A DNA stretch of 32,467 nucleotides from a virus. The stretch is taken from IMG/VR virus record IMGVR_UViG_3300045988_047216, positions 1-32,467 of that record; one strand, written 5' to 3'. The first letter of the stretch is position 1; every line of letters begins with the position of its first letter. The notes beneath the pieces were generated by a model. It saw nothing but the letters and a program-made list of their open reading frames with translations. It was not told the origin of the DNA and made no database searches. Made by a program: the position numbers and the translations under genes. This document shows, one piece after another, positions 3,316 to 28,966 of this stretch.

Positions 3316-3343
3316 CGAACGTAATTTAAAAATATTGACGCTT

Positions 3344-5359
3344 ATGAGACATCTTTTCATTGACTTTGAGACATATTCGGCAACGGATATAAAAACAGCA
3401 GGTAATTATAAATATTGCGAAGACCCGGAATTCGAGATACTTCTTTGCGGGTATGCTTTTGACGATGGGGACGTGCGTATTATCGACTTATTAGACGATG
3501 ACGGACGGGGACGATTTCATAAGATATTCTCTTATGTGGAAGAAAACACCGATATTGTGTTGGTGGCTCACAATGCCAACTTTGAACGTGTCTGTCTGAA
3601 AGAATACGGTTTCGACATACCTGCCGAACGGTTTTTCTGCACAGCCAACATGTCACTGTATTGCGGGCTTCCGGCCTCATTGGGACAGGTGTCTGAGATA
3701 CTGGATTTGAAAGACAAAAAATTAGGTACGGGGAAAGACTGGATACGGTATTTTTCCATACCTTGCAAGCCTACGGCAACTAACGGACGCCGAGGGCGAA
3801 ACTTCCCTTATCACAACCCGGAAGGTTGGGAGGAGTTTAAGGAATATCTTAAGTATGACGTATTATCGGAAAGGGAAATCTTTAATAAGCTATCGGTATT
3901 CAAGTTTCCAGCGTCAGAACAGAGGATATACGCGGCAGACCAACGTATAAATGACTACGGGATTAAGGCCGATTTACAACTTGCTAAAAACGCTGAGGAT
4001 ATATCGAATACTGAAAAAGCCCTATTGGAAGACCGAGCACTCAACAGATACAATATTAACTCAATGAAATCACATCCTCAGATAAAAGAGTTCATACGAG
4101 TGCGCACAGGTCTTATTGTAGATCCTTTGAACAAGACTGCAATTACCGATGTGGTTACCTCGATAAAAGACGCGGACAGAATATCCGAAGAAAACAAACG
4201 CGACGTTCTGGAAGTGTTGGAAATGCGTAACGAGATAAACAAGACCTCTAATGCGAAGTACACGGCTATTCTTGCAAGCGCGGGACGTGGTGACCGGATA
4301 AGAGGTCTGTTCAGATACTATGGAGCTAACCGAACGGGACGATGGGCGGGACGCCTCGTCCAATTGCAGAACCTGCCTCAGAACCACATAGACGATTTGG
4401 ATACAGCAAGGCAGCTTGTAAAAGACAAGGATTTGCCCACGATGAAGTTGCTGTACGATAAGCCTACGCACATCCTGTCTCAGCTTATACGTACCGCGTT
4501 CATTGCGCCCGATGGATATACGCTATGTGTTGCTGACTTTTCGGCTATTGAGGCACGTGTTATCGCATGGGCAGCGCAGGAGCAATGGAGACTCGACTTG
4601 TTTAAAGACCCGAAATCGGATATATATTGTGCGTCGGCCTCGAAGATGTTCGGCGTTCCTGTGCATAAAGGTGATGAGTTAAGGCAGCGAGGTAAAGTTG
4701 CCGAGCTTGCATTAGGGTATGGCGGTGGTGTCAATGCACTAACCACGATGGATACGAAAAAAGCCCTTACAGAAGAGGAAAAGCCCGAAATCCTATACAA
4801 GTGGAGGGAGGCTAACCCGAATATCGTATCTTTGTGGAAACGCCTCGAAAGATGCGCTAAAACGTGCATAAGCACACGACAGGAACAAACGTTTGAGATA
4901 GACAAAAACGCCCGGCTCATATTCAGATACGAGCACGGCGCGATGACTATCGAATTGCCGTCCGGCCGGAAGTTGTTCTATCCGTCCGCGAGACTCGGAA
5001 GTAGGACAATAAAAGGAGCTAACGGCGATTTCGATGTGCAGGACATATCATACATGGGACAAGACCAGACGACGGGTAAATGGGTCAAGTTGCATACCTA
5101 TGGAGGAAAGCTAACGGAGAACATTATCCAAGCTATTTCGCGCGATTTACTTGCTAATGCCATATTCAGAGTATTCTATCTCGGTTATAACATTGTATTG
5201 CATGTACACGATGAAATCGCCGCTGAGATACCAAAGGACGGATGCGAAGAGCAGACCTTACAGAGAATGATTGACGCGATGTGTACCGCGCCTCAGTGGG
5301 CAGCTAACATCCCGTTGCGCGCCGCGGGATACATAACGGACTATTACAAAAAAGATTGA
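3344..5359 (+). CDS. family A DNA polymerase with 3'-5' exonuclease domain and no 5' nuclease domain
   Basis: FIDFETYS gives ExoI (DxE) and HNANFE gives ExoII. ADFSAIEARV is motif A, RQRGKVAELALGYGGG is motif B and VLHVHDEI is motif C. The ORF track starts at TTG 3335. I prefer the first ATG at 3344 (MRHLFIDFET). Confidence 0.9.
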   Translation: MRHLFIDFETYSATDIKTAGNYKYCEDPEFEILLCGYAFDDGDVRIIDLLDDDGRGRFHKIFSYVEENTDIVLVAHNANFERVCLKEYGFDIPAERFFCTANMSLYCGLPASLGQVSEILDLKDKKLGTGKDWIRYFSIPCKPTATNGRRGRNFPYHNPEGWEEFKEYLKYDVLSEREIFNKLSVFKFPASEQRIYAADQRINDYGIKADLQLAKNAEDISNTEKALLEDRALNRYNINSMKSHPQIKEFIRVRTGLIVDPLNKTAITDVVTSIKDADRISEENKRDVLEVLEMRNEINKTSNAKYTAILASAGRGDRIRGLFRYYGANRTGRWAGRLVQLQNLPQNHIDDLDTARQLVKDKDLPTMKLLYDKPTHILSQLIRTAFIAPDGYTLCVADFSAIEARVIAWAAQEQWRLDLFKDPKSDIYCASASKMFGVPVHKGDELRQRGKVAELALGYGGGVNALTTMDTKKALTEEEKPEILYKWREANPNIVSLWKRLERCAKTCISTRQEQTFEIDKNARLIFRYEHGAMTIELPSGRKLFYPSARLGSRTIKGANGDFDVQDISYMGQDQTTGKWVKLHTYGGKLTENIIQAISRDLLANAIFRVFYLGYNIVLHVHDEIAAEIPKDGCEEQTLQRMIDAMCTAPQWAANIPLRAAGYITDYYKKD

Positions 5360-20986: not shown

Positions 20987-23491
20987 ATGGCAGACCAAGT
21001 AACATTATTAGACCTTTCGTTCGACACGTCGGGCGCATTAGACGGGCTGGACGCGCTTATCGCGAAATCGTTAGAACTGGCCGAGCAAAAGAAGCAGTTG
21101 AGTGCCGCGTTGAAAGACGAACAGGCACAGGTAAATGCCGCAGCAAAAGCATACAAGGCGGGTTCTATATCGCAGGAAGAATATCGAAAGATAGTTTCCA
21201 ACTCGACTAAAGCCCAGACCGACCTAACCAAGCAGATGATAGAGACTAACAAGTCTATATCGGATAACAACTCTGAAATCAAGGTCAACACTACTTTACT
21301 GACAAGTCAAGAAACGAGTGTTAACGCACTCCGTGCCCAACTTGCAAAGAATACTAAGGAGTTGAACGCCATGAGCGCGGCAACGCGTAACAATACGGCT
21401 GAGGGTCAGAAACTTGTAACCGAGACAAAGGAAATCTCCGACAAATTAAAGGAGATGGAGAAAGCCGCAGGCGACACGAGACGAAACGTAGGTAACTACG
21501 CGGAAAGCGTGCAGGAAGCTTTATCCAGCACCAAAGGTCTGTCGGGTGCAACGGGTACGCTGGCCTCGAGCATGTCGGGCGCGGTAGGCTCAGTCAAGGC
21601 ATTTACTTCGGCTTTGCTTGCTAACCCTATCGTTGCTATCGTCGGCCTCGTGTTAACGCTCATATCGACTATCGAGAAGCTGATGAAGCGCAACACGGAG
21701 ATGGCTACTAACCTGAAAGCCGCGTTCGCGCCGTTCGAGGTCATATTTTCCCGTATTCTGGATGGCATCACGGAACTTTTGAATGGTGTCGCAAAGGCGA
21801 TTGACTGGGTATCAACTAAAGTAGTGTCCCTGTTATCATCCATCGGGCTTATATCGGAAGAGACAGCAAAGGCCGCTAACGCGGCAAAAGAGTTGACGAA
21901 GCAAGAGCAGGCCATCTATGAGGCGCAAACCGATTCGATAGTCACTTTGTCCGAGATGTCTCGCGAGTTGGCAAACCAAAAGACCATTATCGCAGACCAA
22001 ACCAAGTCAGTTAAGGAAAGAAACGCCGCTGCTAACCAAGGATTGTCAGTATTGAAGCAGATGCAGAACATAGAGGTTGGCATCCTGCAGCAGCAGTATG
22101 AACAGATAAAAGCTCAGAACGAGTTAAGCTATACGAGTGCCGAGGACAGGCGTAAAGAGATGGAAGCTCTTGCAGCATTAAATGCTAAAAAGGCCGAGTA
22201 TGCAGATAAAGAGAGGGAGCTTATCTCTCAGAGAAGTTCATTCGAGGCTCAGGAAACCGCTAAAAACTCAGCAGCGGCACAAGCTGCAGAACTTGCAAAG
22301 GCTAATGCAGCCGTTAAAGCATCTCAGGAAGCTGAGAAAGCCAAACGAGAGATGCAGGCTGAGACTATCAAGCAGATGGAAGTGGCGTTAACCACGCTCG
22401 ACCTGTCAATCAAGGAACGCGAGTTGAACAGCAACACCACGGCAGATAAGCTTAAGAACCAAGAAGAATATAACGCTGAAAGTCTTAAGTTGGAAAAATA
22501 CCGCTTGGAACAGGGTTTGATAACCCAACAGGAATACGATAACAAAGCAACCCAACTGAGACTGCAAGAGTTACAAACTCGGCAGCAATTAGAGGCTGAG
22601 CAGGAGAAGCTAAATCAAGAACGCAAAGCAATGGACGAGGCCAACCGTAAAGAGTTGGAAATGTCTAACGTAGCTAACGAGTATGAGATGCGGCAGGCAC
22701 AGTTGGACGCCCAGTATCAGCAAGAGTTGGCAGCAGCCGAGAGGATAGGCGCGGATACTACATTGGTTCAGCAGAAGTATGAGAAAGCCAAAGAAGACCT
22801 AACCAAAGCGCGTGTTAACGCTGAGTTGACAATGACAGCCGGGTTGGCAGGTCAGATGTCCGACCTGCTCGGTGAAGAGAGCGCAGCAGGTAAAGCGTTT
22901 GGCGTTGTGCAGGCCACAATCAACACGTACCTCGGTGCGACCAAAGCACTGGCGCAGGGCGGTATACTCGGTATCGCACAGGCGGCTATCGTTATCGCGT
23001 TCGGTATGAAGCAGGTTCTTTCCATTGCCAAACAGAAAGACCCTGATACGAAAATTAACACAAGTGTTAAAAAGTATGCAAAAGGCGGACAGATTTACGG
23101 CAAATCCCATGCGCAGGGCGGTGTAACATTTAGAGGTGATAACGGTCAGGTATTCGAGGCCGAGGGCGGTGAAAACATTTACATTATGAAGAAGACCGCG
23201 AGCGCCGAGATTAATGCTCTGTCGGCTCTGAACGAGGCGCACGGTGGCAATTCCTTTGCAACGTCTGGCTTATACAAGTTTGCCGATGGCGGTATGGTAG
23301 CGAGCATCTCGGAAGCGAACCGCGCCGTTAGACAGATGGATAACGTTAAGCTATCCAATGAAACCATCAATCAATTGGCAGGTGTCGTTATCGGAGCAGT
23401 CGCGAGCATGCCTAACCCGGTAGTAGCTGTGCAGGATATAAACACAGGTCAACGCGATGTAGCTGTCGTGCAGGATTTATCGAGATATTGA
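20987..23491 (+). CDS. tape-measure-like / internal virion protein (long coiled coil with hydrophobic segments)
   Basis: 834 aa dominated by Ala/Gln/Glu/Lys heptad-like sequence. There are two hydrophobic stretches (ANPIVAIVGLVLTLISTI and GILGIAQAAIVIAFGM). The Gly-rich C-terminal region has recurring xGGx (AKGGQI, AQGGVT, AEGGEN, AHGGNS, ADGGMV). Confidence 0.55.
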   Translation: MADQVTLLDLSFDTSGALDGLDALIAKSLELAEQKKQLSAALKDEQAQVNAAAKAYKAGSISQEEYRKIVSNSTKAQTDLTKQMIETNKSISDNNSEIKVNTTLLTSQETSVNALRAQLAKNTKELNAMSAATRNNTAEGQKLVTETKEISDKLKEMEKAAGDTRRNVGNYAESVQEALSSTKGLSGATGTLASSMSGAVGSVKAFTSALLANPIVAIVGLVLTLISTIEKLMKRNTEMATNLKAAFAPFEVIFSRILDGITELLNGVAKAIDWVSTKVVSLLSSIGLISEETAKAANAAKELTKQEQAIYEAQTDSIVTLSEMSRELANQKTIIADQTKSVKERNAAANQGLSVLKQMQNIEVGILQQQYEQIKAQNELSYTSAEDRRKEMEALAALNAKKAEYADKERELISQRSSFEAQETAKNSAAAQAAELAKANAAVKASQEAEKAKREMQAETIKQMEVALTTLDLSIKERELNSNTTADKLKNQEEYNAESLKLEKYRLEQGLITQQEYDNKATQLRLQELQTRQQLEAEQEKLNQERKAMDEANRKELEMSNVANEYEMRQAQLDAQYQQELAAAERIGADTTLVQQKYEKAKEDLTKARVNAELTMTAGLAGQMSDLLGEESAAGKAFGVVQATINTYLGATKALAQGGILGIAQAAIVIAFGMKQVLSIAKQKDPDTKINTSVKKYAKGGQIYGKSHAQGGVTFRGDNGQVFEAEGGENIYIMKKTASAEINALSALNEAHGGNSFATSGLYKFADGGMVASISEANRAVRQMDNVKLSNETINQLAGVVIGAVASMPNPVVAVQDINTGQRDVAVVQDLSRY

Positions 23492-23534
23492 TTTAATAAA
23501 CTCATGTAGAGATGGTAGTTAAAAACCAACTATC

Positions 23535-23542
23535 TATCTTTG
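23535..23542 (+). promoter_or_regulatory. Bacteroidota-type -7 box TATCTTTG
   Basis: Exact TAnnTTTG match 70 nt upstream of ATG 23612. It lies inside the inverted repeat AACTCATG (23499-23506) with CATGAGTT (23543-23550). Confidence 0.45.
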
Positions 23543-23611
23543 CATGAGTTACAACTACAAGTGCACTTGCTAACTATATGTTATCATACTGCACTATAAA
23601 AAATAGTAAGA

Positions 23612-24598
23612 ATGATTTTTGAAAAACTGAGAATTATAGAGGCCGGACAGACCGCTAACTTTGGCGAGTGGGACGGACAGATGTACCCGTTGGTTATGAC
23701 TGACGAGGCCGTTCGCAGCGTTGTAACTTTGGGAAATGCCAAACCAGTACATTGCAGACGTACCCACAATGGAACTGACATGTTGGACGGATATCTCGGA
23801 AAGTTCGTTAACTTCGTTTATGAGGATGGCGTAGCCTATGCAGATTTCGAGATGTCTGAGGCACTTGAAACCGCCTATCCACAAGAGGCAAAGTTTATCG
23901 AAACCATGATATTGAAAGAACCAGATATGCTCGGTGTTTCGGTCATGGGTCTGGATAATAGAGAATTAAACGGTGAAAGCATAGACGTTACCAACTTCGC
24001 AGAATTGTACTCATGCGATATTGTAGGTCTTCCTGCCGCTACTACAAGTCTATATAGTAATAATCAAAAAGAAAAAACAATGAACAAATTTTTCAGTGCT
24101 TTTGCATCTATGCTAAAGAAGAGCAGCTACGCCACTGAGACGGTAGAAACCGTATCCGGCGACAAAATCACGATCGAGGCCGAGGGTGAAGTTATGGCAA
24201 TCGGTGACAAAGTATTTGACGATGCAGGAAATCCGCATCCTGATGGCGAGGTTCGTATCAAGGTCGGCGAGTCAATTCTTGTATTACGTATCGAAGACGG
24301 ACGTATTGCCGAGGTAAAACCATCCGAAGACCCTCGCGGTGAGCAGGAGGACGAAATCAGAGACGAACGCGAAATTGGTCGCGAGACATCTCGTGTACCC
24401 GATGAATTTGCAGCCCGTTTTGAGAAAATGGAACGCAGCCTGTTCGTAATGGGAAAGACTTTGGAAAGTATCAATGCCCAGTTCGGCAAGGTTACTCCAA
24501 AACCTAATACGCCTACCGGTGGTATGCCTACAAGCGGCAAAACGAAGCTCAGTAAAGAGGCCGTAGCCGAGGCTGCAAAGAAGTTCTACAATCGCTAA
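23612..24598 (+). CDS. capsid scaffolding protein, possibly GPO-like protease-scaffold fusion
   Basis: It lies immediately upstream of the capsid gene. The N-terminal half loosely parallels P2 gpO as I recall it (RIIEAG..DG, a His in RRTHNG, GVSVMG, IVGLPAATTS). The C-terminal half is charged and helical (EQEDEIRDEREIGRE). Confidence 0.5.
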   Translation: MIFEKLRIIEAGQTANFGEWDGQMYPLVMTDEAVRSVVTLGNAKPVHCRRTHNGTDMLDGYLGKFVNFVYEDGVAYADFEMSEALETAYPQEAKFIETMILKEPDMLGVSVMGLDNRELNGESIDVTNFAELYSCDIVGLPAATTSLYSNNQKEKTMNKFFSAFASMLKKSSYATETVETVSGDKITIEAEGEVMAIGDKVFDDAGNPHPDGEVRIKVGESILVLRIEDGRIAEVKPSEDPRGEQEDEIRDEREIGRETSRVPDEFAARFEKMERSLFVMGKTLESINAQFGKVTPKPNTPTGGMPTSGKTKLSKEAVAEAAKKFYNR

Positions 24599-24620
24599 CC
24601 TTTAAAAAGAAAAAGAAATT

Positions 24621-25565
24621 ATGGCTTTTACATTCACAGACTTAAACAAACTTAACCTTAACTCACTGAGTGAGGTTATATCACTTACTGTAGGACTGGC
24701 AGGGGAACTTGCAAACGGCTTGACTGTCCTTAACGGTATCGCTAACAACACACCTGTTGTTTCTCTTACTGCTGCTGACAAGGCATTGCGCAAATCCGCA
24801 GGTTGTAACGGTACTTACTTCTACGACGCTATCAGCGACAAAACGAAGTATTACACACATGCGCCTATCGAACTGCCTATCGAAATCTGTTTGCAGTCAT
24901 TGTGGGGAAAGATGGTAGCCAAAGGCATCAACTTGGACGACAATTTCTCTGAAACAGAGTTGGCAGGCTTCATTCAAGCAGAAGTATTGAAAGTATTGGA
25001 AGCTGACTTGCTTCGTCTGTCTTGGTTGGACGGTGACGTTACCGAAAAAGCTACTGGTTACGGCATCTTTACTTTGGGTGGTTTTATCAAACAGTTCGAA
25101 GATTCAACAATGACCGCAGGTGCCTTGACTCTTACCACTGAGGGAGTTCTTGCAGCTTTGCGCGCTTGTGTTGACGGACAAAGACCAGACGAGTTAGATA
25201 ACTCCGAGTTCTTCGTTTCATCTAACGTTATGCGTCTTTACAAGAACCTGTTGGAAGATAAGGGCAACAGTGTTGCACAGAGCTTCTTGGTTGATGGCCG
25301 CCCCGTGTACTATTTCGAGGGATACAAGGTTACTGAACTTCGTCACGTGTCTAACGCAGCGTTGACCGATGGTAACAACACAGCGTTCATTGCGTTTACT
25401 CCGAAAACCAACCTGCATCTGGCAATGGAAAGTTCAGCAGTTTCAATCGCTCCGTTCGTGCAAGACGCGAAGAGCAGAAACTACTACTCACAGACTTTGT
25501 TTGCAGCAAGTGCCATGTTGGTAGCACCGGAAAAGATGCAATTGTATCTTACGGCTCGCGCATAA
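24621..25565 (+). CDS. major capsid protein (candidate)
   Basis: 314 aa, directly after the scaffold gene and followed by the strongest terminator in the genome. The assignment rests on position and size, not on a recognised motif. Confidence 0.6.
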   Translation: MAFTFTDLNKLNLNSLSEVISLTVGLAGELANGLTVLNGIANNTPVVSLTAADKALRKSAGCNGTYFYDAISDKTKYYTHAPIELPIEICLQSLWGKMVAKGINLDDNFSETELAGFIQAEVLKVLEADLLRLSWLDGDVTEKATGYGIFTLGGFIKQFEDSTMTAGALTLTTEGVLAALRACVDGQRPDELDNSEFFVSSNVMRLYKNLLEDKGNSVAQSFLVDGRPVYYFEGYKVTELRHVSNAALTDGNNTAFIAFTPKTNLHLAMESSAVSIAPFVQDAKSRNYYSQTLFAASAMLVAPEKMQLYLTARA

Positions 25566-25586
25566 GCGAAACTAATATTCACTAAC

Positions 25587-25622
25587 AAAAGGGTTTGGGA
25601 CTTAAAACCCAAACCCTTTTTA
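25587..25622 (+). terminator. rho-independent terminator
   Basis: A 13-bp stem, AAAAGGGTTTGGG (25587-25599) with CCCAAACCCTTTT (25608-25620), has a T-run included. Confidence 0.8.
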
Positions 25623-25634
25623 ATTAATAATATT

Positions 25635-26162
25635 ATGGCAAGAAATTGTTTAAATAAAATATCCGCAGGCTTTCCTACTACATGCGCACTGCCTGTACAC
25701 GGTATTAAAGAGTTATACCTTATATACCCAGAGGATGTTACGATAGCAAGGGCCTCGGATAACTCTTGGCGGAAGGTCACATTTACGACCTCAGGAAAGA
25801 GCTATAAAATAGAGGGGTATAAACAGAATATACAGATAACATCGTCTTTGAGAAGTTTAGACGCTTCTAATAAATTTGATGTGTCTGTTATGTTCAAAGT
25901 TCCATATACAAGACACGCGGATTTGGCATCTATGCTTATGAATAGGTTTTATGTTGTTGCCGTTCCGAATGACCTTAACGCGCATCCGGCTGTGTGTTTA
26001 GGTGATACCAGCCCGTTAGAAATGACCGCCGCCGATTGGGACAGCAATGCGAATGGAACATTACTAACTGTAACGTTATCCGCGCCTGACGGTTCGGCAG
26101 GAAATTACTTACTGCCTGTAGAATCCACAGCCTTAACAGCAATAATCTCAAAAGCATCTTAA
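25635..26162 (+). CDS. structural-module paralog 1 of 3
   Basis: The N-terminus MARNCLNKISAGFPTTC aligns with paralog 2 (MACISKLSAGFAYDC). It shares GI(K/E), I..ED(V/I) and K(S/A)YKI(E/D). Confidence 0.6.
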   Translation: MARNCLNKISAGFPTTCALPVHGIKELYLIYPEDVTIARASDNSWRKVTFTTSGKSYKIEGYKQNIQITSSLRSLDASNKFDVSVMFKVPYTRHADLASMLMNRFYVVAVPNDLNAHPAVCLGDTSPLEMTAADWDSNANGTLLTVTLSAPDGSAGNYLLPVESTALTAIISKAS

Positions 26163-26164
26163 TT

Positions 26165-26707
26165 ATGGCATGTATATCAAAATTATCAGCCGGGTTCGCC
26201 TATGATTGCGACACTGGTGCAACTGGGATAGAAAACGCATTTATCATCAACAAAGAAGATATTGCATCATTTACGGTTGACCCTACAGCCCCTGTTATTG
26301 TCAACGCGGTTACATTAGTATCTGGGGCAAAAGCCTATAAGATAGATACCCCAAAAAGAACGCTTGTAGTTACGGAAAGTCTAAAAACAAATGAGGGAGC
26401 GCCTAATGCTTTAAGTTTTTCAGCAACTATTACAATTACAGCGTTAAATAGTTATGATTTTCGTATGGCTGTTTTACGGTCATTACCTAATGGGTCTTAT
26501 GTATTATTTACAAAAGAACCCGGTAACACGTACCGCGTTTATGGCCTATATTATGGATTGTCATCTACTTCCTATGACCGTAATACACATGATAACGGAA
26601 ATTGGGTTACCGTAGCATTGGCTACACCAGAACAGGTTATCGGTGAAGACGGTTTGCAGGTACAACAAAACACTTATAACGCTCTTTATGAGGCAGCAGT
26701 TTACTAA
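26165..26707 (+). CDS. structural-module paralog 2 of 3
   Basis: Similar size (180 aa), the same N-terminal C-x10-12-C pattern, and YRVYGL shared with paralog 3. Confidence 0.6.
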   Translation: MACISKLSAGFAYDCDTGATGIENAFIINKEDIASFTVDPTAPVIVNAVTLVSGAKAYKIDTPKRTLVVTESLKTNEGAPNALSFSATITITALNSYDFRMAVLRSLPNGSYVLFTKEPGNTYRVYGLYYGLSSTSYDRNTHDNGNWVTVALATPEQVIGEDGLQVQQNTYNALYEAAVY

Positions 26708-26729
26708 TTAAAGAAAGGAGAACAATACT

Positions 26730-27281
26730 ATGACATGTATTAAAAATTTAAACGGAAACAGAACTATGCCTTGTGGAGCATCAACGGTAAATTTTTTAAA
26801 TTCTCCAAAAGGTGCTAAAGTGATTAATGCTCAACATATATCGAGTTATACAACTTCATCTAACTACGCTACTATTACAAGAACAGCGGGCGCACCCGCA
26901 GCAGCTATTCTTGAAACTGCTAATAATTCATTAATCGTTAATGTAGCTCTGAAAGGCGGAGAAATGTATCAGCAGCTTTGGGATGTATCAATAGAGTTTT
27001 CACTTTTCCAAGGAACTATATTATCTGACCCTTTAGGCGCGGCAGATGGCTCAGGAGCTAACGCACAATGCGTATTTGCAGTAGATCACGGAAACGGCCT
27101 GTACCGCGTGTATGGACTTGGTGCGCCTTTAGACTGTTTATCAATCGAGGGTGCGAGCAACGGCAATGGGTATTTACGAACAACGTTTGGCGTTGAGGAC
27201 TGGCAAACGGGTACTACTATCTATACGCTTGATAAAGCTTCTTATGATGCTCTATCAAACCCTGTACCTGGGGGGGGGTGA
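26730..27281 (+). CDS. structural-module paralog 3 of 3, ending in a G9 tract
   Basis: Contains MTCIKNLNGNRTMPC and LYRVYGLGAPL. It is preceded by AAAGGAG 10 nt upstream of the ATG. It ends ...PVPGGG-TGA, with the stop directly after the G run. Confidence 0.6.
   Translation: MTCIKNLNGNRTMPCGASTVNFLNSPKGAKVINAQHISSYTTSSNYATITRTAGAPAAAILETANNSLIVNVALKGGEMYQQLWDVSIEFSLFQGTILSDPLGAADGSGANAQCVFAVDHGNGLYRVYGLGAPLDCLSIEGASNGNGYLRTTFGVEDWQTGTTIYTLDKASYDALSNPVPGGG
27270..27278 (+). other. G9 homopolymer tract (candidate slippage or phase-variation site, or a homopolymer length error)
   Basis: Nine consecutive G read directly. The frame-0 stop TGA is at 27279-27281. Confidence 0.9.
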
Positions 27282-27412
27282 CACCGAGTCCTGACCCTAC
27301 ACCCGATACGCCATCTGGCGGTGGGTCTACCCAAAAAGAATGCGATGGGTCTGGCATCTTATCAGATGGGACGAAGTGTCCCGGCTGCATAATGTGCGAC
27401 CCATTAGGTTAA
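27278..27412 (+). CDS. -1 frame continuation of 26730-27281 (or an independent GTG-started 44-aa ORF)
   Basis: The hand-read -1 frame is VTPSPDPTPDTPSGGGSTQKECDGSGILSDGTKCPGCIMCDPLG-stop. This frame is open from 27248. It has no in-frame ATG before 27392. One extra G in the tract would fuse it to the upstream ORF. Confidence 0.3.
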   Translation: MTPSPDPTPDTPSGGGSTQKECDGSGILSDGTKCPGCIMCDPLG

Positions 27413-27434
27413 TAATCTTATAAACAACTTTATA

Positions 27435-27806
27435 ATGGCAACAAAGAAAACAACGGCAGTAGCCGATACCGAGAACGAAGTAACAACGGCAGTAGTGGAA
27501 GAACCCACTACACCCGTAGAACTTAATACACAGGAGGAAAAGATAGAGGCGTATTTCAAATATACGGGTCTAAAACTCGATACCAATTGCCACATGGATA
27601 TGGAGTATCTACATTTGTGGTATGTAGAAAAGTATCTGACAGGCAAAGTGTATAAGTGGGCAATGAGACCCGGTGCGCGTATCGTTCACTACGTGGACGG
27701 AGTGATTTACAAGTCGGCCAACATGACGGACGAAATTGCTGAACGACTGATGAAAGAAAATCCTGCCTATGCAGAACAGTTTGTTAACATTTTAGAAAAG
27801 AAATAA
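27435..27806 (+). CDS. hypothetical protein
   Basis: ORF on the coding strand ending 2 nt before the portal-like gene. No motif recognised. Confidence 0.55.
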   Translation: MATKKTTAVADTENEVTTAVVEEPTTPVELNTQEEKIEAYFKYTGLKLDTNCHMDMEYLHLWYVEKYLTGKVYKWAMRPGARIVHYVDGVIYKSANMTDEIAERLMKENPAYAEQFVNILEKK

Positions 27807-27808
27807 TT

Positions 27809-28966
27809 ATGATAGGATTCAACCGCTGCAAGCTCATTGTTGAACGAGCGCTGAAAATAACCGCTAATACTGGCGAGAAAACCGTAACATACGGTGAAAA
27901 CAACCTATACCCGCAGGAAATCGCGGAACTTATATATGCGTCCAAAACAGCGAGCGCGGCGGTTGAAAAAATGACCGAGAACATTATATGCGAGGGATTT
28001 AAGAACAAAGACTTTGCAGAGAAAACGAACGGTAACGGATACAATATGAATGACGTATTGGAGGCTACCGCAAACGATGTGTCACGTTTCAAAGGCTGGG
28101 CATGGATAGTCCAGTACGGCATTGTGCCGGGCGGATATAAACCCGTAAGCATTTACAACGTTCCGTTCGAGTATGTTCGCGCAGTTCTCCATCCTAACTA
28201 TGCTAAAGACCCGACCGTTAAGGAATGGAGGGTCTTTAACAACTGGACAAGGGATAATGTCAAGGCAACTAATGTGTTTGAGAACTCGACCGTTTACCCG
28301 ACTTATGACCCGGATAATTTCGCGGCAGAAGTAGAGGACGTAGGCGGAATAGAAAACCACAAAGGACAGCTTTTATATATCAACCTCGGTACTACTCGGC
28401 CATACCCATTAAGCCCGTTCCATGCTGTCCGTAACGAGATGGGCGCGGAAGACAAAAACGGAAGATACGTTAACAGAACGTTAGGCCGTGGTTTTCACAT
28501 GTGCTCAATCGTATCGCACGGAGACTTTGAAAACGAACAGGCGCAGGAAGATTTCCGCAATACACTGTCTGATATGATGGGTAGCGAAAATGCAGGCTCT
28601 GTTTTGGCTGTAAGAGATGAAAACGTAGGCACGGATAAACCGTTTATCAAAGTAGATCAGTTAGGTTCTCCGATTGACAGGGAATTATACAAGGCTTATG
28701 TAGAGCCTTTGCGCAAAGACATTGCCATAGCTGCCTACAATATACCTCTACCGCTTATTGACAGTTCACTGTTGACGTTTTCGAACGCCTCAGGTGAAGT
28801 TATTAAGGAGCTACAGAAAGTCTATCGTAACAGCCTTGCAAAGGTGCGTTATCGCATATCAAGAGAGTTGTTCCAAATATTCGATTTAGACCCTACTATC
28901 ACAGAAATTAAAAATAAATTTGATGAATATGTCGTACCCAATAGCACTATTCCGGCAGTTATTTGA
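27809..28966 (+). CDS. portal protein candidate (small, PBSX/P2 gpQ-like size class)
   Basis: It is the only remaining virion ORF of suitable size (385 aa). The N-terminal YGENNLYPQEIAELIYASKTASAAVEKMTENIICEGF resembles the conserved N-terminal segment of PBSX-family portals as I recall it. Not verified. Confidence 0.5.
   Translation: MIGFNRCKLIVERALKITANTGEKTVTYGENNLYPQEIAELIYASKTASAAVEKMTENIICEGFKNKDFAEKTNGNGYNMNDVLEATANDVSRFKGWAWIVQYGIVPGGYKPVSIYNVPFEYVRAVLHPNYAKDPTVKEWRVFNNWTRDNVKATNVFENSTVYPTYDPDNFAAEVEDVGGIENHKGQLLYINLGTTRPYPLSPFHAVRNEMGAEDKNGRYVNRTLGRGFHMCSIVSHGDFENEQAQEDFRNTLSDMMGSENAGSVLAVRDENVGTDKPFIKVDQLGSPIDRELYKAYVEPLRKDIAIAAYNIPLPLIDSSLLTFSNASGEVIKELQKVYRNSLAKVRYRISRELFQIFDLDPTITEIKNKFDEYVVPNSTIPAVI

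What the first reader, a model, noticed from the sequence alone, without database searches (positions are those of the whole stretch)
27261..27412. A G9 tract terminates the third structural paralog, and the -1 frame continues into a Pro/Thr linker plus a four-Cys module
The ORF 26730-27281 ends CCT GGG GGG GGG TGA, and the nine G run from 27270 to 27278. Reading from 27278 in the -1 frame gives 44 further codons with no stop: VTPSPDPTPDTPSGGGSTQKECDGSGILSDGTKCPGCIMCDPLG. That is a Pro/Thr-rich linker followed by C-x11-C-x2-C-x2-C, which resembles a small metal-binding knuckle. This frame is open from 27248 and has no in-frame ATG until near its end.

Four explanations fit:
- Programmed -1 ribosomal or transcriptional slippage that makes a minor C-terminally extended form. 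Extended capsid or tail-tube variants of this kind are known (T7 gp10A/10B, SPP1 gp17.1/17.1*, Listeria phages A118 and PSA).
- Slipped-strand phase variation of the extension within the phage population.
- A homopolymer length error in the assembly. G10 would give one fused 227-aa ORF.
- An independent GTG-started micro-ORF that uses the G run as a Shine-Dalgarno-like element.
Basis: partly seen in the sequence, partly recalled or inferred. Interest (0 to 1): 0.65.

Follow-up and report, generated by a model that had tools for sequence, protein, structure and literature searches.

The report
Poly-G switch on phage tail protein
A run of nine G's at the end of a tail-tube-like gene of a human-gut Bacteroides phage works as a length-variable switch: it decides whether a conserved 44-residue, four-cysteine tail piece is attached, and this genome is in the 'off' setting.

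Summary
G9 (27270-27278) ends ORF 26730-27281, and the -1 frame runs 44 codons to TAA at 27410-27412. It is the only G or C run of 6 or more in 32.5 kb.

The extension is real coding sequence. It is fused in frame to the body in at least 8 related genomes. In 12 codons free of search bias, 13 of 13 substitutions are synonymous in that frame (P~2e-9).

The tract is hypermutable. Contigs from at least 10 samples are 100% identical over 560 nt on each side of the tract, yet carry G11, G12, G13 (fused) or G14. A G10 fused form has an identical protein body.

The window's G9 is not a one-off assembly error. A 100%-identical independent assembly and a strain at 96% nt identity also have G9.

All three frame relations occur among relatives, and no RNA structure follows the tract. 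This is therefore not a classical fixed frameshift site. It is best read as a phase-variable contingency tract, with RNA-level or ribosomal slippage as a possible second route.

The host protein is the third of three tail-tube-like paralogs of 'Bacteroiduroviridae' siphophages. The function of the extension is unknown.

Verdict: a new variant of known kinds (Campylobacter-phage polyG tracts; SPP1 gp17.1*).

The parts
26730..27281 (+). Gene for the third tail-tube-like paralog (183 aa in this genome, the OFF form). It stops at TGA 27279-27281, immediately after the G tract.
   Evidence: ORF. The AF2 body has pLDDT above 90 and a beta fold. The best PDB matches, all weak, are siphophage tail tube, terminator and baseplate-tube proteins. 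BFVD matches include major tail proteins. PMC12694917 describes three tail-tube-like genes in cultured relatives.
27270..27278 (+). G9 homopolymer: the hypermutable switch. In-frame lengths for this flank would be G7, G10 or G13.
   Evidence: unique run. Relatives carry G7, 8, 9, 11, 13 and 14. The same strain carries G11 to G14 at the DNA level with 100%-identical flanks, and G10 as inferred from a protein with an identical body. GGG is the rarest Gly codon.
27278..27337 (+). Pro/Thr/Gly-rich linker of the extension (VTPSPDPTPDTPSGGGSTQK), read in the -1 frame. It includes the A5 run 27333-27337.
   Evidence: The linker varies in sequence and length among relatives. In all but L043/L044 (A6 instead of A5) and L046 (duplicated linker) it stays in frame with the Cys module.
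27338..27412 (+). Four-Cys module plus terminal DPLG (ECDGSGILSDGTKCPGCIMCDPLG) and the TAA stop. This is the conserved payload of the switch.
   Evidence: The peptide is identical in 13 of 14 distinct genomes; one has M to V. In the 12 codons not constrained by my search pattern, 13 changes are synonymous and 0 non-synonymous (P=1.8e-9). The terminal [DN]PLG is shared with Cys-free tails of more distant homologs.
25635..26707 (+). Paralogs 1 (25635-26162) and 2 (26165-26707) of the tail-tube-like triplet. They are context and have no G tract.
27217..27390 (-). 57-aa antisense ORF across the extension. It is probably a non-coding shadow of the extension frame, not part of the system.
   Evidence: It is called as a gene in L058. 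Its third codon positions coincide with those of the extension frame. It scores 10 synonymous and 3 non-synonymous changes, against 13 and 0 for the plus-strand frame.

Best explanation
The G run is a hypermutable homopolymer, a contingency or phase-variation tract. It sits at the junction between the body of a tail-tube-like virion protein and a conserved C-terminal extension of 40-45 residues: a Pro/Thr linker, a four-Cys module and a terminal DPLG.

Slipped-strand mispairing during phage DNA replication adds or removes G's. Lineages therefore switch between an ON state, where body and extension form one ORF of about 227 aa, and two OFF states. In one OFF state a stop follows the run directly; in the other a short DTE(S/T) tail follows.

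This window is OFF: G9 with TGA directly after the run. One more G, or two fewer, would fuse the frames.

Shown: the tract length varies in otherwise identical genomes; the extension is coding and under purifying selection; the body has a tail-tube-like fold.

Inferred: the variation arises by replication slippage within phage populations; it changes virion tail composition; the extension is displayed on, or docks along, the outside of the tail tube, like the C-terminal add-ons of other siphophage tail-tube proteins.
For: 1. The same strain carries different tract lengths. L003 has G14; L059-L061 have G13 (fused, 3 samples); L062-L066 have G12 (5 samples); L067 and L068 have G11. All are 100% identical over 560 nt upstream and, where the contig extends that far, 560 nt downstream.
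2. Proteins with zero body mismatches have tails implying G10, G11, G12, G13 and G14.
3. Other lineages: the STVA flank occurs with G7 (fused: L040, L041) and G8 (OFF: L002, L045). Cluster 7 holds the fused P0161 alongside P0162 ending in GGG*. The window's lineage has G9 (window, L058, L033, P0143) and G8 (P0137).
4. The extension is coding. At least 8 fused ORFs exist (L001, P0002-P0005, P0128, P0134, P0161). The synonymous to non-synonymous count is 13 to 0 in the extension frame, against 1:12 and 0:13 in the other two plus-strand frames and 10:3 in the best antisense frame. Changes private to OFF genomes such as L002 are also synonymous.
5. The tract is not an effect of codon bias: GGG makes up 11% of Gly codons, and this is the only G or C run of 6 or more.
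6. All three frame relations occur, and no RNA structure follows the tract. That fits a DNA-length switch better than a fixed recoding site.
7. The phage encodes its own family-A DNA polymerase.
8. [quoted passage not shown]
Against: - No reads were available, so heterogeneity within a single phage population is not shown.
- Illumina length calls for G runs of 11 or more are noisy. Part of the G11-G14 spread could be technical. The G7, G8 and G9 differences are less exposed to this, but they come from diverged strains.
- In-frame genomes are a minority: about 4 of 19 contigs of the identical strain, and none in the window's lineage.
- Some lineages look locked OFF or decayed. L043/L044 carry an extra A. 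L046 has a duplicated linker that stops at a G3. Several cluster-2 members have interrupted tracts (AGKG*, AGEGDTET). The clade at about 55% identity keeps a polymorphic G tract with only trivial tails. The tract can therefore persist as a tolerated hotspot without any payload.
- No cultured isolate has the tract or the extension, so there is no experimental handle.
- G9 is shared by the window and a strain at 96% identity, which shows that switching does not scramble the length between all samples.
Confidence: 0.6

Rival explanations
1. Slippage at expression level. RNA polymerase stuttering on the G run, or ribosomal -1 slippage of tRNA-Gly on GGG_GGG_GGG with UGA in the A site (a slippery run plus a 'shifty stop'), makes a minor long form from OFF genomes. 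Each virion would then carry a mixture of short and long subunits, as with SPP1 gp17.1 and gp17.1*. This could act together with DNA-level switching.
For: - The extension is under strict purifying selection although most genomes are OFF.
- In the window, and in the commonest state of the best-sampled strain (G12, carried on 11 contigs), the run is followed directly by TGA and the extension lies at -1. That gives perfect GGG-to-GGG re-pairing.
- Low-level frameshifting on a G run rescues herpesvirus thymidine kinase indel mutants. Listeria phage tail-shaft genes shift at CCC_UGA to extend the major tail protein (PMC5009743).
- SPP1 makes a 3:1 mixture of tail-tube forms by frameshifting (PMC8718954).
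Against: - The frame relation is not conserved. The other OFF class (GGT GAC ...) needs a +1 shift and has no adjacent stop.
- Tract lengths of 7 to 14 would give very different ratios of the two forms.
- No downstream stimulatory structure was found (z=+1.15).
- From my own knowledge, bacterial transcriptional slippage is documented mainly for A or T runs, not G runs.
- No proteomic data are available.
Confidence: 0.22
2. A decaying remnant. The extension is a dispensable, formerly fused tail that is being lost. The G run is only a mutational hotspot, and OFF genomes such as this window are loss-of-function variants with no switching role.
For: - The related clade (L004, L005 and many of P0014-P0120) keeps a polymorphic G tract with only trivial tails (GG*, GGVTP*, GGGDPVTP*) and an unreachable NPLG* remnant.
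- L043/L044 (A6), L046 and the interrupted tracts in cluster 2 look like decay.
- Cultured relatives lack both the tract and the extension and are still viable siphophages.
Against: - The extension ORF is intact in nearly all OFF genomes, and 13 of 13 substitutions are synonymous, including changes private to OFF genomes.
- Linker indels keep the reading frame.
- ON and OFF states alternate within one otherwise identical strain. That is reversible switching, not one-way loss.
Confidence: 0.1
3. Sequencing or assembly artefact. The true tract is in frame (for example G10), and the split ORF is a homopolymer miscall.
For: - Homopolymers are error-prone.
- Several contigs break right after the tract (L033, L065, L066, L068).
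- The G11-G14 calls for one strain could partly be noise.
Against: - G9 is reproduced in an independent, 100%-identical ENA MEGAHIT contig (L058). Four ENA contigs carry the same protein. A distinct strain at 96% identity (L033) also has G9.
- OFF calls outnumber ON calls in every lineage. That would not be expected if ON were the truth and OFF the error.
Confidence: 0.05
4. An independent micro-ORF (44 aa) that starts at GTG 27278 and uses the G run as a Shine-Dalgarno-like element.
For: - A GTG lies at the junction in most relatives.
- One GenBank MAG annotates the extension as a separate 40-aa protein, DAG54054.1.
Against: - The module is fused to the body in at least 8 genomes.
- L038 has no ATG, GTG or TTG in the extension frame.
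- The neighbouring gene 27435 has no Shine-Dalgarno-like sequence upstream. From my own knowledge, Bacteroidota initiation is generally not SD-driven.
- The exact 44-aa peptide is not in the protein collection.
Confidence: 0.03

Closest known systems
Hypermutable polyG tracts in Campylobacter (Fletchervirus) phages (Sorensen et al. 2021, Cell Rep 35:109214; cited)
   Same: A G homopolymer inside a phage virion-protein gene whose length differs between otherwise identical genomes, which gives ON and OFF protein variants.
   Different: - The host phylum differs (gut Bacteroidota siphophage).
- There is a single tract per genome.
- The tract sits at the extreme 3' end of the gene, so OFF still yields a complete tail-tube-like body, and only a small C-terminal module is toggled.
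- No phenotype has been demonstrated here.
- I could not read the Cell Reports paper itself, so details of that system come from memory and citing papers.
SPP1 gp17.1 / gp17.1* and the Listeria phage PSA, A118 and A500 tail-shaft proteins (PMC8718954 and PMC5009743)
   Same: A major-tail-protein-type gene yields a short form and a C-terminally extended form by a change of reading frame at the very end of the gene. In Listeria phages the shift site abuts a UGA (CCC_UGA), which compares with GGG_UGA here. The SPP1 extension is dispensable.
   Different: - Those are fixed ribosomal +1 frameshift sites with a set ratio (3:1 in SPP1), and they add an Ig-like or FN3 domain.
- Here the junction is a length-variable homopolymer with all three frame relations.
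- The payload is a 24-residue Cys-rich module, not an Ig fold.
Bacterial contingency loci (homopolymer or SSR phase variation, e.g. Campylobacter, Neisseria, Haemophilus; PMC11868660 in the listing, PMC10877375)
   Same: A coding homopolymer of 7 or more G's whose length changes by slipped-strand mispairing switch translation of the downstream sequence on and off.
   Different: - It lies in a virus genome replicated by the phage's own PolA.
- It controls a C-terminal appendage, not the whole protein.
Herpes simplex thymidine kinase G-run indels with compensatory frameshifting (PMC5009743)
   Same: An indel in a run of G's puts the downstream sequence out of frame, and low-level frameshifting on the run still yields some full-length product.
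   Different: That is a eukaryotic virus under drug selection. There is no evidence here that OFF genomes make the long form.
C-terminal add-ons of siphophage tail-tube proteins: lambda gpV and T5 pb6 Ig-like domains, and the 80alpha gp53 'C-arm' (PMC8718954)
   Same: A flexible C-terminal piece attached to the tube-forming body. It either projects outward or packs on a neighbouring subunit.
   Different: - Those are constitutively fused.
- The present module has no detectable similarity to them.
- Its location on the virion is not known.

Membership tests
Homopolymer (SSR) phase-variation / contingency locus | A homopolymeric tract within or at the edge of a coding sequence, long enough to slip (about 7 or more G/C) | tested here: met
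   G9 at 27270-27278 inside ORF 26730-27281. It is unique in the window.
Homopolymer (SSR) phase-variation / contingency locus | Tract length differs among otherwise (near-)identical genomes | tested here: met
   G11, G12, G13 and G14 with 100%-identical 560-nt flanks across at least 10 samples. G10 is inferred from a protein with an identical body. Caveat: length calls for G runs of 11 or more may be partly technical.
Homopolymer (SSR) phase-variation / contingency locus | Length changes switch a functional product on and off (the downstream frame is functional) | tested here: met
   Fused and split forms both exist. The extension frame shows 13 synonymous and 0 non-synonymous changes.
Homopolymer (SSR) phase-variation / contingency locus | High-frequency, reversible switching within a clonal population, with a phenotypic consequence | not testable with these tools
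   This needs reads from single lysates, passage experiments and phenotyping. No cultured isolate carries the tract.
Programmed ribosomal frameshift site (SPP1 / Listeria-phage tail protein type) | A conserved shift site with a fixed frame relation between the two ORFs across relatives | tested here: not met
   The extension lies at 0, +1 or -1 relative to the body in different relatives, and tract length ranges from 7 to 14.
Programmed ribosomal frameshift site (SPP1 / Listeria-phage tail protein type) | A stimulatory element: a downstream RNA structure, or an adjacent stop or rare codon | tested here: inconclusive
   No stable downstream structure was found (z=+1.15). In the window's frame class, a UGA does directly follow the slippery run.
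Programmed ribosomal frameshift site (SPP1 / Listeria-phage tail protein type) | Both protein forms made from one genotype | not testable with these tools
   This needs proteomics or a reporter assay.
Siphophage tail-tube (major tail protein) fold family | A tail-tube-type beta-sandwich fold | tested here: inconclusive
   - The AF2 body is confident (pLDDT above 90).
- The best PDB matches are tail-tube, terminator or baseplate-tube proteins, but they are weak (E 0.06-0.17, probability 0.66-0.84, TM 0.4 or less).
- BFVD gives strong matches only to uncharacterized phage proteins and weak ones to TP901-1-type and Propionibacterium B3 major tail proteins.
- There is no Pfam or PHROG hit for paralog 3.
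- PMC12694917 independently predicts that the triplet is tail-tube-like.
Siphophage tail-tube (major tail protein) fold family | The phage has a long non-contractile tail, and the gene lies in the virion module | tested here: met
   EM of cultured relatives shows non-contractile tails of about 120 nm (PMC12694917). The gene lies between the capsid-like gene and the portal gene, and relatives annotate a tape-measure gene upstream.
Zinc knuckle / small metal-binding Cys4 module | A recognised Cys/His spacing or fold matching a known zinc-binding family | tested here: not met
   There is no Pfam hit even at E up to 10. AF2 confidence for the extension is 47-65 with no defined fold. The spacing C-x11-C-x2-C-x2-C was not matched to any family. 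Metal binding itself cannot be tested here.

The most novel reading that the evidence does not exclude
Gut Bacteroides siphophages of this clade use a single polyG contingency tract as a bet-hedging device. It decorates the tail tube, in some progeny only, with a small cysteine-rich, DPLG-terminated module. That module changes how the tail interacts with its surroundings, for example by metal- or disulfide-mediated cross-linking with the conserved N-terminal cysteines of the three tube paralogs, or by adhesion to capsule, mucus or glycans. The most common OFF state (run followed by UGA) would additionally leak a low level of the long form by -1 slippage. That would make it a two-level switch, DNA plus decoding, on a virion structural protein.
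Probability: 0.25. Interest if true: 0.75.

Novelty: new variant of a known kind. Interest (0 to 1): 0.6.

Why it matters
Phase variation is well known as a bacterial defence against phages, including capsule switching in Bacteroides. The reverse case, phages carrying their own contingency tracts, has so far been documented essentially only for Campylobacter phages.

A polyG-gated tail appendage in an abundant family of human-gut Bacteroides siphophages would have three consequences:
- Such switches would be seen to occur in gut viromes.
- It would bear on the recently noted, unexplained triplet of tail-tube-like genes: it shows that at least the third paralog carries an optional appendage.
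- Annotators would be warned that split ORFs at this locus are biology, not errors. Current records call the extension as a separate 40-aa ORF, or call an antisense ORF across it.

It also offers a simple experimental system, a single tract with a small payload, for measuring homopolymer slippage by a phage-encoded PolA.

Tried and rejected
- PHROGs and Pfam on paralog 3, the fused form and the extension gave no family.
- A tblastn search of 50,697 phage records found the body only in Bacteroides and Phocaeicola phages, and the extension in none.
- Sibling isolates (BD26P1-5, BU183P1/2, BU241P1/2, BU2-1) were fetched to compare tract lengths. They have no G tract (they end ...STPAxAPGA*), so they were uninformative.
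- A degenerate DNA pattern for KCPGCI[MV]CDPLG gave 3 hits in viral contigs, 2 in metagenome contigs and 0 in genome contigs. The module is therefore rare, confined to this phage clade and absent from the bacterial genomes scanned.
- The search for homologous proteins with the 44-mer returned nothing because of its word-index limits. This says nothing about absence.
- RNA folding downstream of the tract found no structure.
- The antisense 57-aa ORF was considered as an alternative coding explanation, because its wobble positions coincide with those of the extension frame. It was rejected: 3 non-synonymous changes against 0, a non-conserved distal part, and fused plus-strand ORFs in relatives.
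- My first selection count (18 synonymous, 1 non-synonymous) was biased, because 12 of the codons were constrained by my own search pattern. I re-did the count on the 12 unconstrained codons.
- L039 has unrelated sequence upstream of the module at a contig end. I treated it as a probable assembly end effect and did not use it.
Full report
OBSERVATION

The sequence is as described. Positions 27267-27281 read CCT GGG GGG GGG TGA, and the nine G's are 27270-27278. ORF 26730-27281 encodes 183 aa. The -1 frame from GTG 27278 encodes VTPSPDPTPDTPSGGGSTQKECDGSGILSDGTKCPGCIMCDPLG, followed by two TAA codons.

The run stands out clearly. It is the only G or C run of 6 or more in 32,467 nt; the next longest G run is 5, and the iid expectation is 0.07. 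GGG is the rarest glycine codon in the window's genes (11%). The other Gly-Gly-Gly tripeptides use mixed codons, including the one in the extension's own linker.

CONTEXT

The window is most of a phage genome of about 33 kb. It encodes:
- a family-A DNA polymerase, a VapE-type primase-helicase, an SNF2 helicase and a large terminase;
- a capsid-like protein, a portal, a holin-like protein and a lysin.

Its nearest cultured relatives (about 70-74% nt identity over parts of the region) are Bacteroides, Phocaeicola and Parabacteroides phages of 33-38 kb. Electron microscopy of those relatives (BU1-1, BU2-1 and others) shows siphoviruses with tails of about 120 nm. They have been proposed as a family, 'Bacteroiduroviridae'. 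[quoted passage not shown] Those three genes correspond to 25635-26162, 26165-26707 and 26730-27281 here.

My own model of the third paralog has a confident beta-rich body (pLDDT above 90). Its best matches among solved structures are siphophage tail-tube, terminator and baseplate-tube proteins, but they are weak (E 0.06-0.17). The extension is modelled at low confidence.

Paralogs 2 and 3 are detectably similar by sequence (27% identity, E=3e-6). Paralogs 1 and 3 are only marginally similar.

THE EXTENSION IS A REAL CODING SEGMENT

In at least eight related genomes the body and the extension form one ORF of 214-227 aa: L001, P0002-P0005, P0128, P0134 and P0161.

Across 14 distinct genomes the 24-residue module ECDGSGILSDGTKCPGCIMCDPLG is identical, apart from one M to V change, although the bodies are only 62-76% identical.

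My DNA search pattern constrained the last 12 codons, so I counted substitutions only in the first 12. There are 13 changes at 12 sites. All are synonymous in the extension frame (binomial P=1.8e-9 against the 21% expected). The other two plus-strand frames score 1:12 and 0:13.

A minus-strand ORF of 57 aa (27390..27217) has been called as a gene in one public contig, and it shares wobble positions with the extension frame. It scores 10:3, and its distal part is not conserved. It is best explained as a shadow of the extension frame.

Linker sequences differ and vary in length, but they keep the module in frame with the tract. The exceptions are L043/L044 (A6 instead of A5 at the position of 27333-27337) and L046 (duplicated linker).

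More distant homologs have cysteine-free tails that also end in [DN]PLG. The terminal motif is therefore older than the cysteine module.

THE TRACT IS HYPERVARIABLE

Among genomes carrying the extension, the run is G7, G8, G9, G11, G13 or G14, and all three frame relations occur.

The strongest evidence comes from one strain sampled many times. Its contigs are 100% identical over 560 nt upstream of the tract and, where the contig extends that far, 560 nt downstream.

| Tract | Loci | State |
|---|---|---|
| G14 | L003 | OFF |
| G13 | L059-L061 (three samples) | ON, fused 227-aa ORF |
| G12 | L062-L066 (five samples) | OFF |
| G11 | L067, L068 | OFF |

The protein encoded by the G12 form is carried on 11 contigs. 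Proteins with zero mismatches in the body have tails implying G10 to G14.

Other lineages show the same pattern:
- The STVA flank occurs with G7 (fused) and with G8 (OFF).
- P0161 (fused) sits in the same cluster as P0162, which ends in GGG*.
- In the window's own lineage, G9 is found in the window, in L058, in L033 and in P0143. G8 is found in P0137, whose tail ...GGGDTES* is exactly the window's +1 frame.

IS THE WINDOW'S G9 AN ERROR?

That is unlikely. L058, an independent ENA assembly, is identical to the window over 1,916 nt and has G9. Four ENA contigs carry the same protein. L033, a distinct strain at 96% nt identity, also has G9.

In every lineage the OFF states outnumber the ON states. 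That is the reverse of what would be expected if ON were the truth and OFF the noise.

I cannot exclude that part of the G11-G14 spread reflects the difficulty of calling long G runs from short reads. Several contigs break right at the tract.

MECHANISM

A classical programmed frameshift site would keep one frame relation and usually a stimulatory element. Here the relation varies, tract length varies two-fold, and the RNA downstream is no more structured than shuffled controls (z=+1.15).

The independent micro-ORF idea fails for three reasons. The module is fused in many genomes. L038 has no possible start codon in that frame. The exact 44-mer is not in the protein collection.

The data fit a homopolymer contingency tract. 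Replication slippage, by the phage's own PolA, changes the number of G's and toggles the appendage. Purifying selection on the appendage persists because lineages pass through the ON state.

This is the behaviour described for hypermutable polyG tracts in Campylobacter phages (Sorensen et al. 2021, cited).

What is shown: the length polymorphism in identical backgrounds, the coding status of the extension and the selection acting on it.

What is inferred: that switching happens within populations at high rate, and that it changes the virion.

A second route is not excluded: slippage during transcription or translation. In the window, and in the commonest state of the best-sampled strain, the run is followed directly by UGA and the extension lies at -1. 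tRNA-Gly could therefore re-pair perfectly while the A site holds a stop. Frameshifting on a G run and 'shifty stop' sites such as CCC_UGA in Listeria-phage tail genes are documented (PMC5009743). I put this at about 0.2 as the main route. It may also coexist with the DNA switch.

A pure-decay reading has some support. The extension is clearly dispensable in some lineages:
- Cultured relatives lack it.
- A sister clade keeps the polymorphic tract with only trivial tails and an unreachable NPLG* remnant.
- Several genomes carry second lesions or interrupted tracts.

The synonymous-only divergence, and the ON/OFF alternation within one strain, argue against decay as the general explanation.

FUNCTION OF THE APPENDAGE

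This is unknown. By analogy with other siphophage tail-tube proteins, the C-terminus is where external add-ons sit (PMC8718954):
- Ig-like domains in lambda gpV and T5 pb6;
- the FN3 domain of SPP1 gp17.1*, which is made by a frameshift and is dispensable;
- the 80alpha 'C-arm', which packs on the neighbouring ring.

A flexible Pro/Thr linker carrying a 24-residue Cys-rich knob with an invariant terminal DPLG fits either an outward-facing adhesin-like decoration or a docking arm. The zinc-knuckle idea has no support beyond the cysteine count: there is no Pfam match, and the model confidence is low.

All three paralogs have two conserved N-terminal cysteines. That invites a cross-linking hypothesis, which I could not test.

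COMPARISON AND NOVELTY

It works like a bacterial or Campylobacter-phage contingency locus. Its outcome resembles the SPP1 and Listeria-phage long and short tail proteins. It is not a member of the programmed-frameshift class, because the defining fixed frame relation was tested and not met.

I found no mention of a frameshift, a homopolymer or phase variation in the paper describing this phage family. A literature search for such a feature in Bacteroides phages found nothing relevant.

I rate it a new variant of a known kind, with interest 0.6. The comparative evidence is unusually clean, and the host family is abundant in the human gut. However, population-level switching, expression of the long form and any phenotype all remain to be shown.

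Noticed in passing
window 25635-25690, 26165-26215, 26730-26780 (N-termini of the three paralogs): All three tail-tube-like paralogs begin M-x-(x-x-)C-[IL] and have a second Cys about 12 residues later (MARNCLNKISAGFPTTC, MACISKLSAGFAYDC, MTCIKNLNGNRTMPC). C3 and C15 are invariant in the 42-sequence alignment of paralog 3. A recent paper reports inter-ring disulfides in a siphovirus tail tube (PMC13576161; I saw only its abstract). A possible link to the four-Cys extension was not tested.
   Followed up: partly
P0040, P0045, P0060, P0063, P0089, P0098, P0115; L004 and L005 around 3546-3600: Homologs at about 54% identity carry cysteine-free C-terminal tails that all end in [DN]PLG (e.g. ...GPILDEDPLG). 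L004 and L005 keep an NPLG* remnant in the frame that is blocked by the TGA after their G8 tract. The terminal PLG motif therefore predates the Cys module. Its role is unknown.
   Followed up: partly
window 27217-27390, minus strand: A 57-aa antisense ORF overlaps the extension and is called as a gene in the identical ENA contig (L058). It looks like a wobble-coincident shadow of the extension frame (10 synonymous and 3 non-synonymous changes, against 13 and 0).
   Followed up: yes
P0125 (= GenBank DAG54054.1), next to P0123 (= DAG54055.1): A public MAG annotation calls the extension as a separate 40-aa GTG-started protein beside the truncated tail-tube-like gene. Existing records therefore split this gene.
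   Followed up: partly
L043 and L044 (G8 plus A6) versus L045 (G8 plus A5); corresponds to window 27333-27337: Two independent assemblies carry an extra A in the A5 run just before the Cys module. This puts the module out of frame with its own linker. A third contig encoding the same body protein has A5. This is either a second slippery site, real decay or an error.
   Followed up: partly
L046, around 1364-1400: The linker is tandemly duplicated (GGGVTPKPDPDTPSGGGG | VTPKPDPEPDKPSGGGG). The first junction is in frame. The second stops at GGT GGA GGT GGG TGA, where no long homopolymer is available for switching.
   Followed up: no
L064 (ENA ERZ27289107 k119_46546, 269,922 nt), phage segment at about 4.9-7.3 kb: The tail module of the L003-type phage lies near the end of a 270-kb contig, and two contigs in the 0.2-1 Mb size class carry this protein. 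This could be integration into a host genome or an assembly chimera. I did not examine it.
   Followed up: no
L063, about 1470-1820: The sequence diverges shortly after the extension's stop, and the next gene is 103 aa instead of 123 and starts about 215 nt later. This is an insertion or rearrangement in an otherwise identical strain.
   Followed up: no
L016, just after the stop of paralog 3: There is an A run of about 29 in the short spacer before the next gene in one relative. This is another long homopolymer at the same junction in a lineage that lacks the G tract.
   Followed up: no
window 3335-5359: In the phage's DNA polymerase, Pfam matches only PF00476 (the polymerase domain). No 3'-5' exonuclease domain was detected at E up to 0.01. 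If proofreading really is absent, that would favour homopolymer slippage.
   Followed up: no
window 20987-28966: The order of the virion-module genes is unusual for a siphophage: tape-measure-like 834-aa gene, 328-aa gene, capsid-like gene, three tail-tube-like paralogs, 123-aa gene, portal. The terminase lies about 4 kb further upstream.
   Followed up: no
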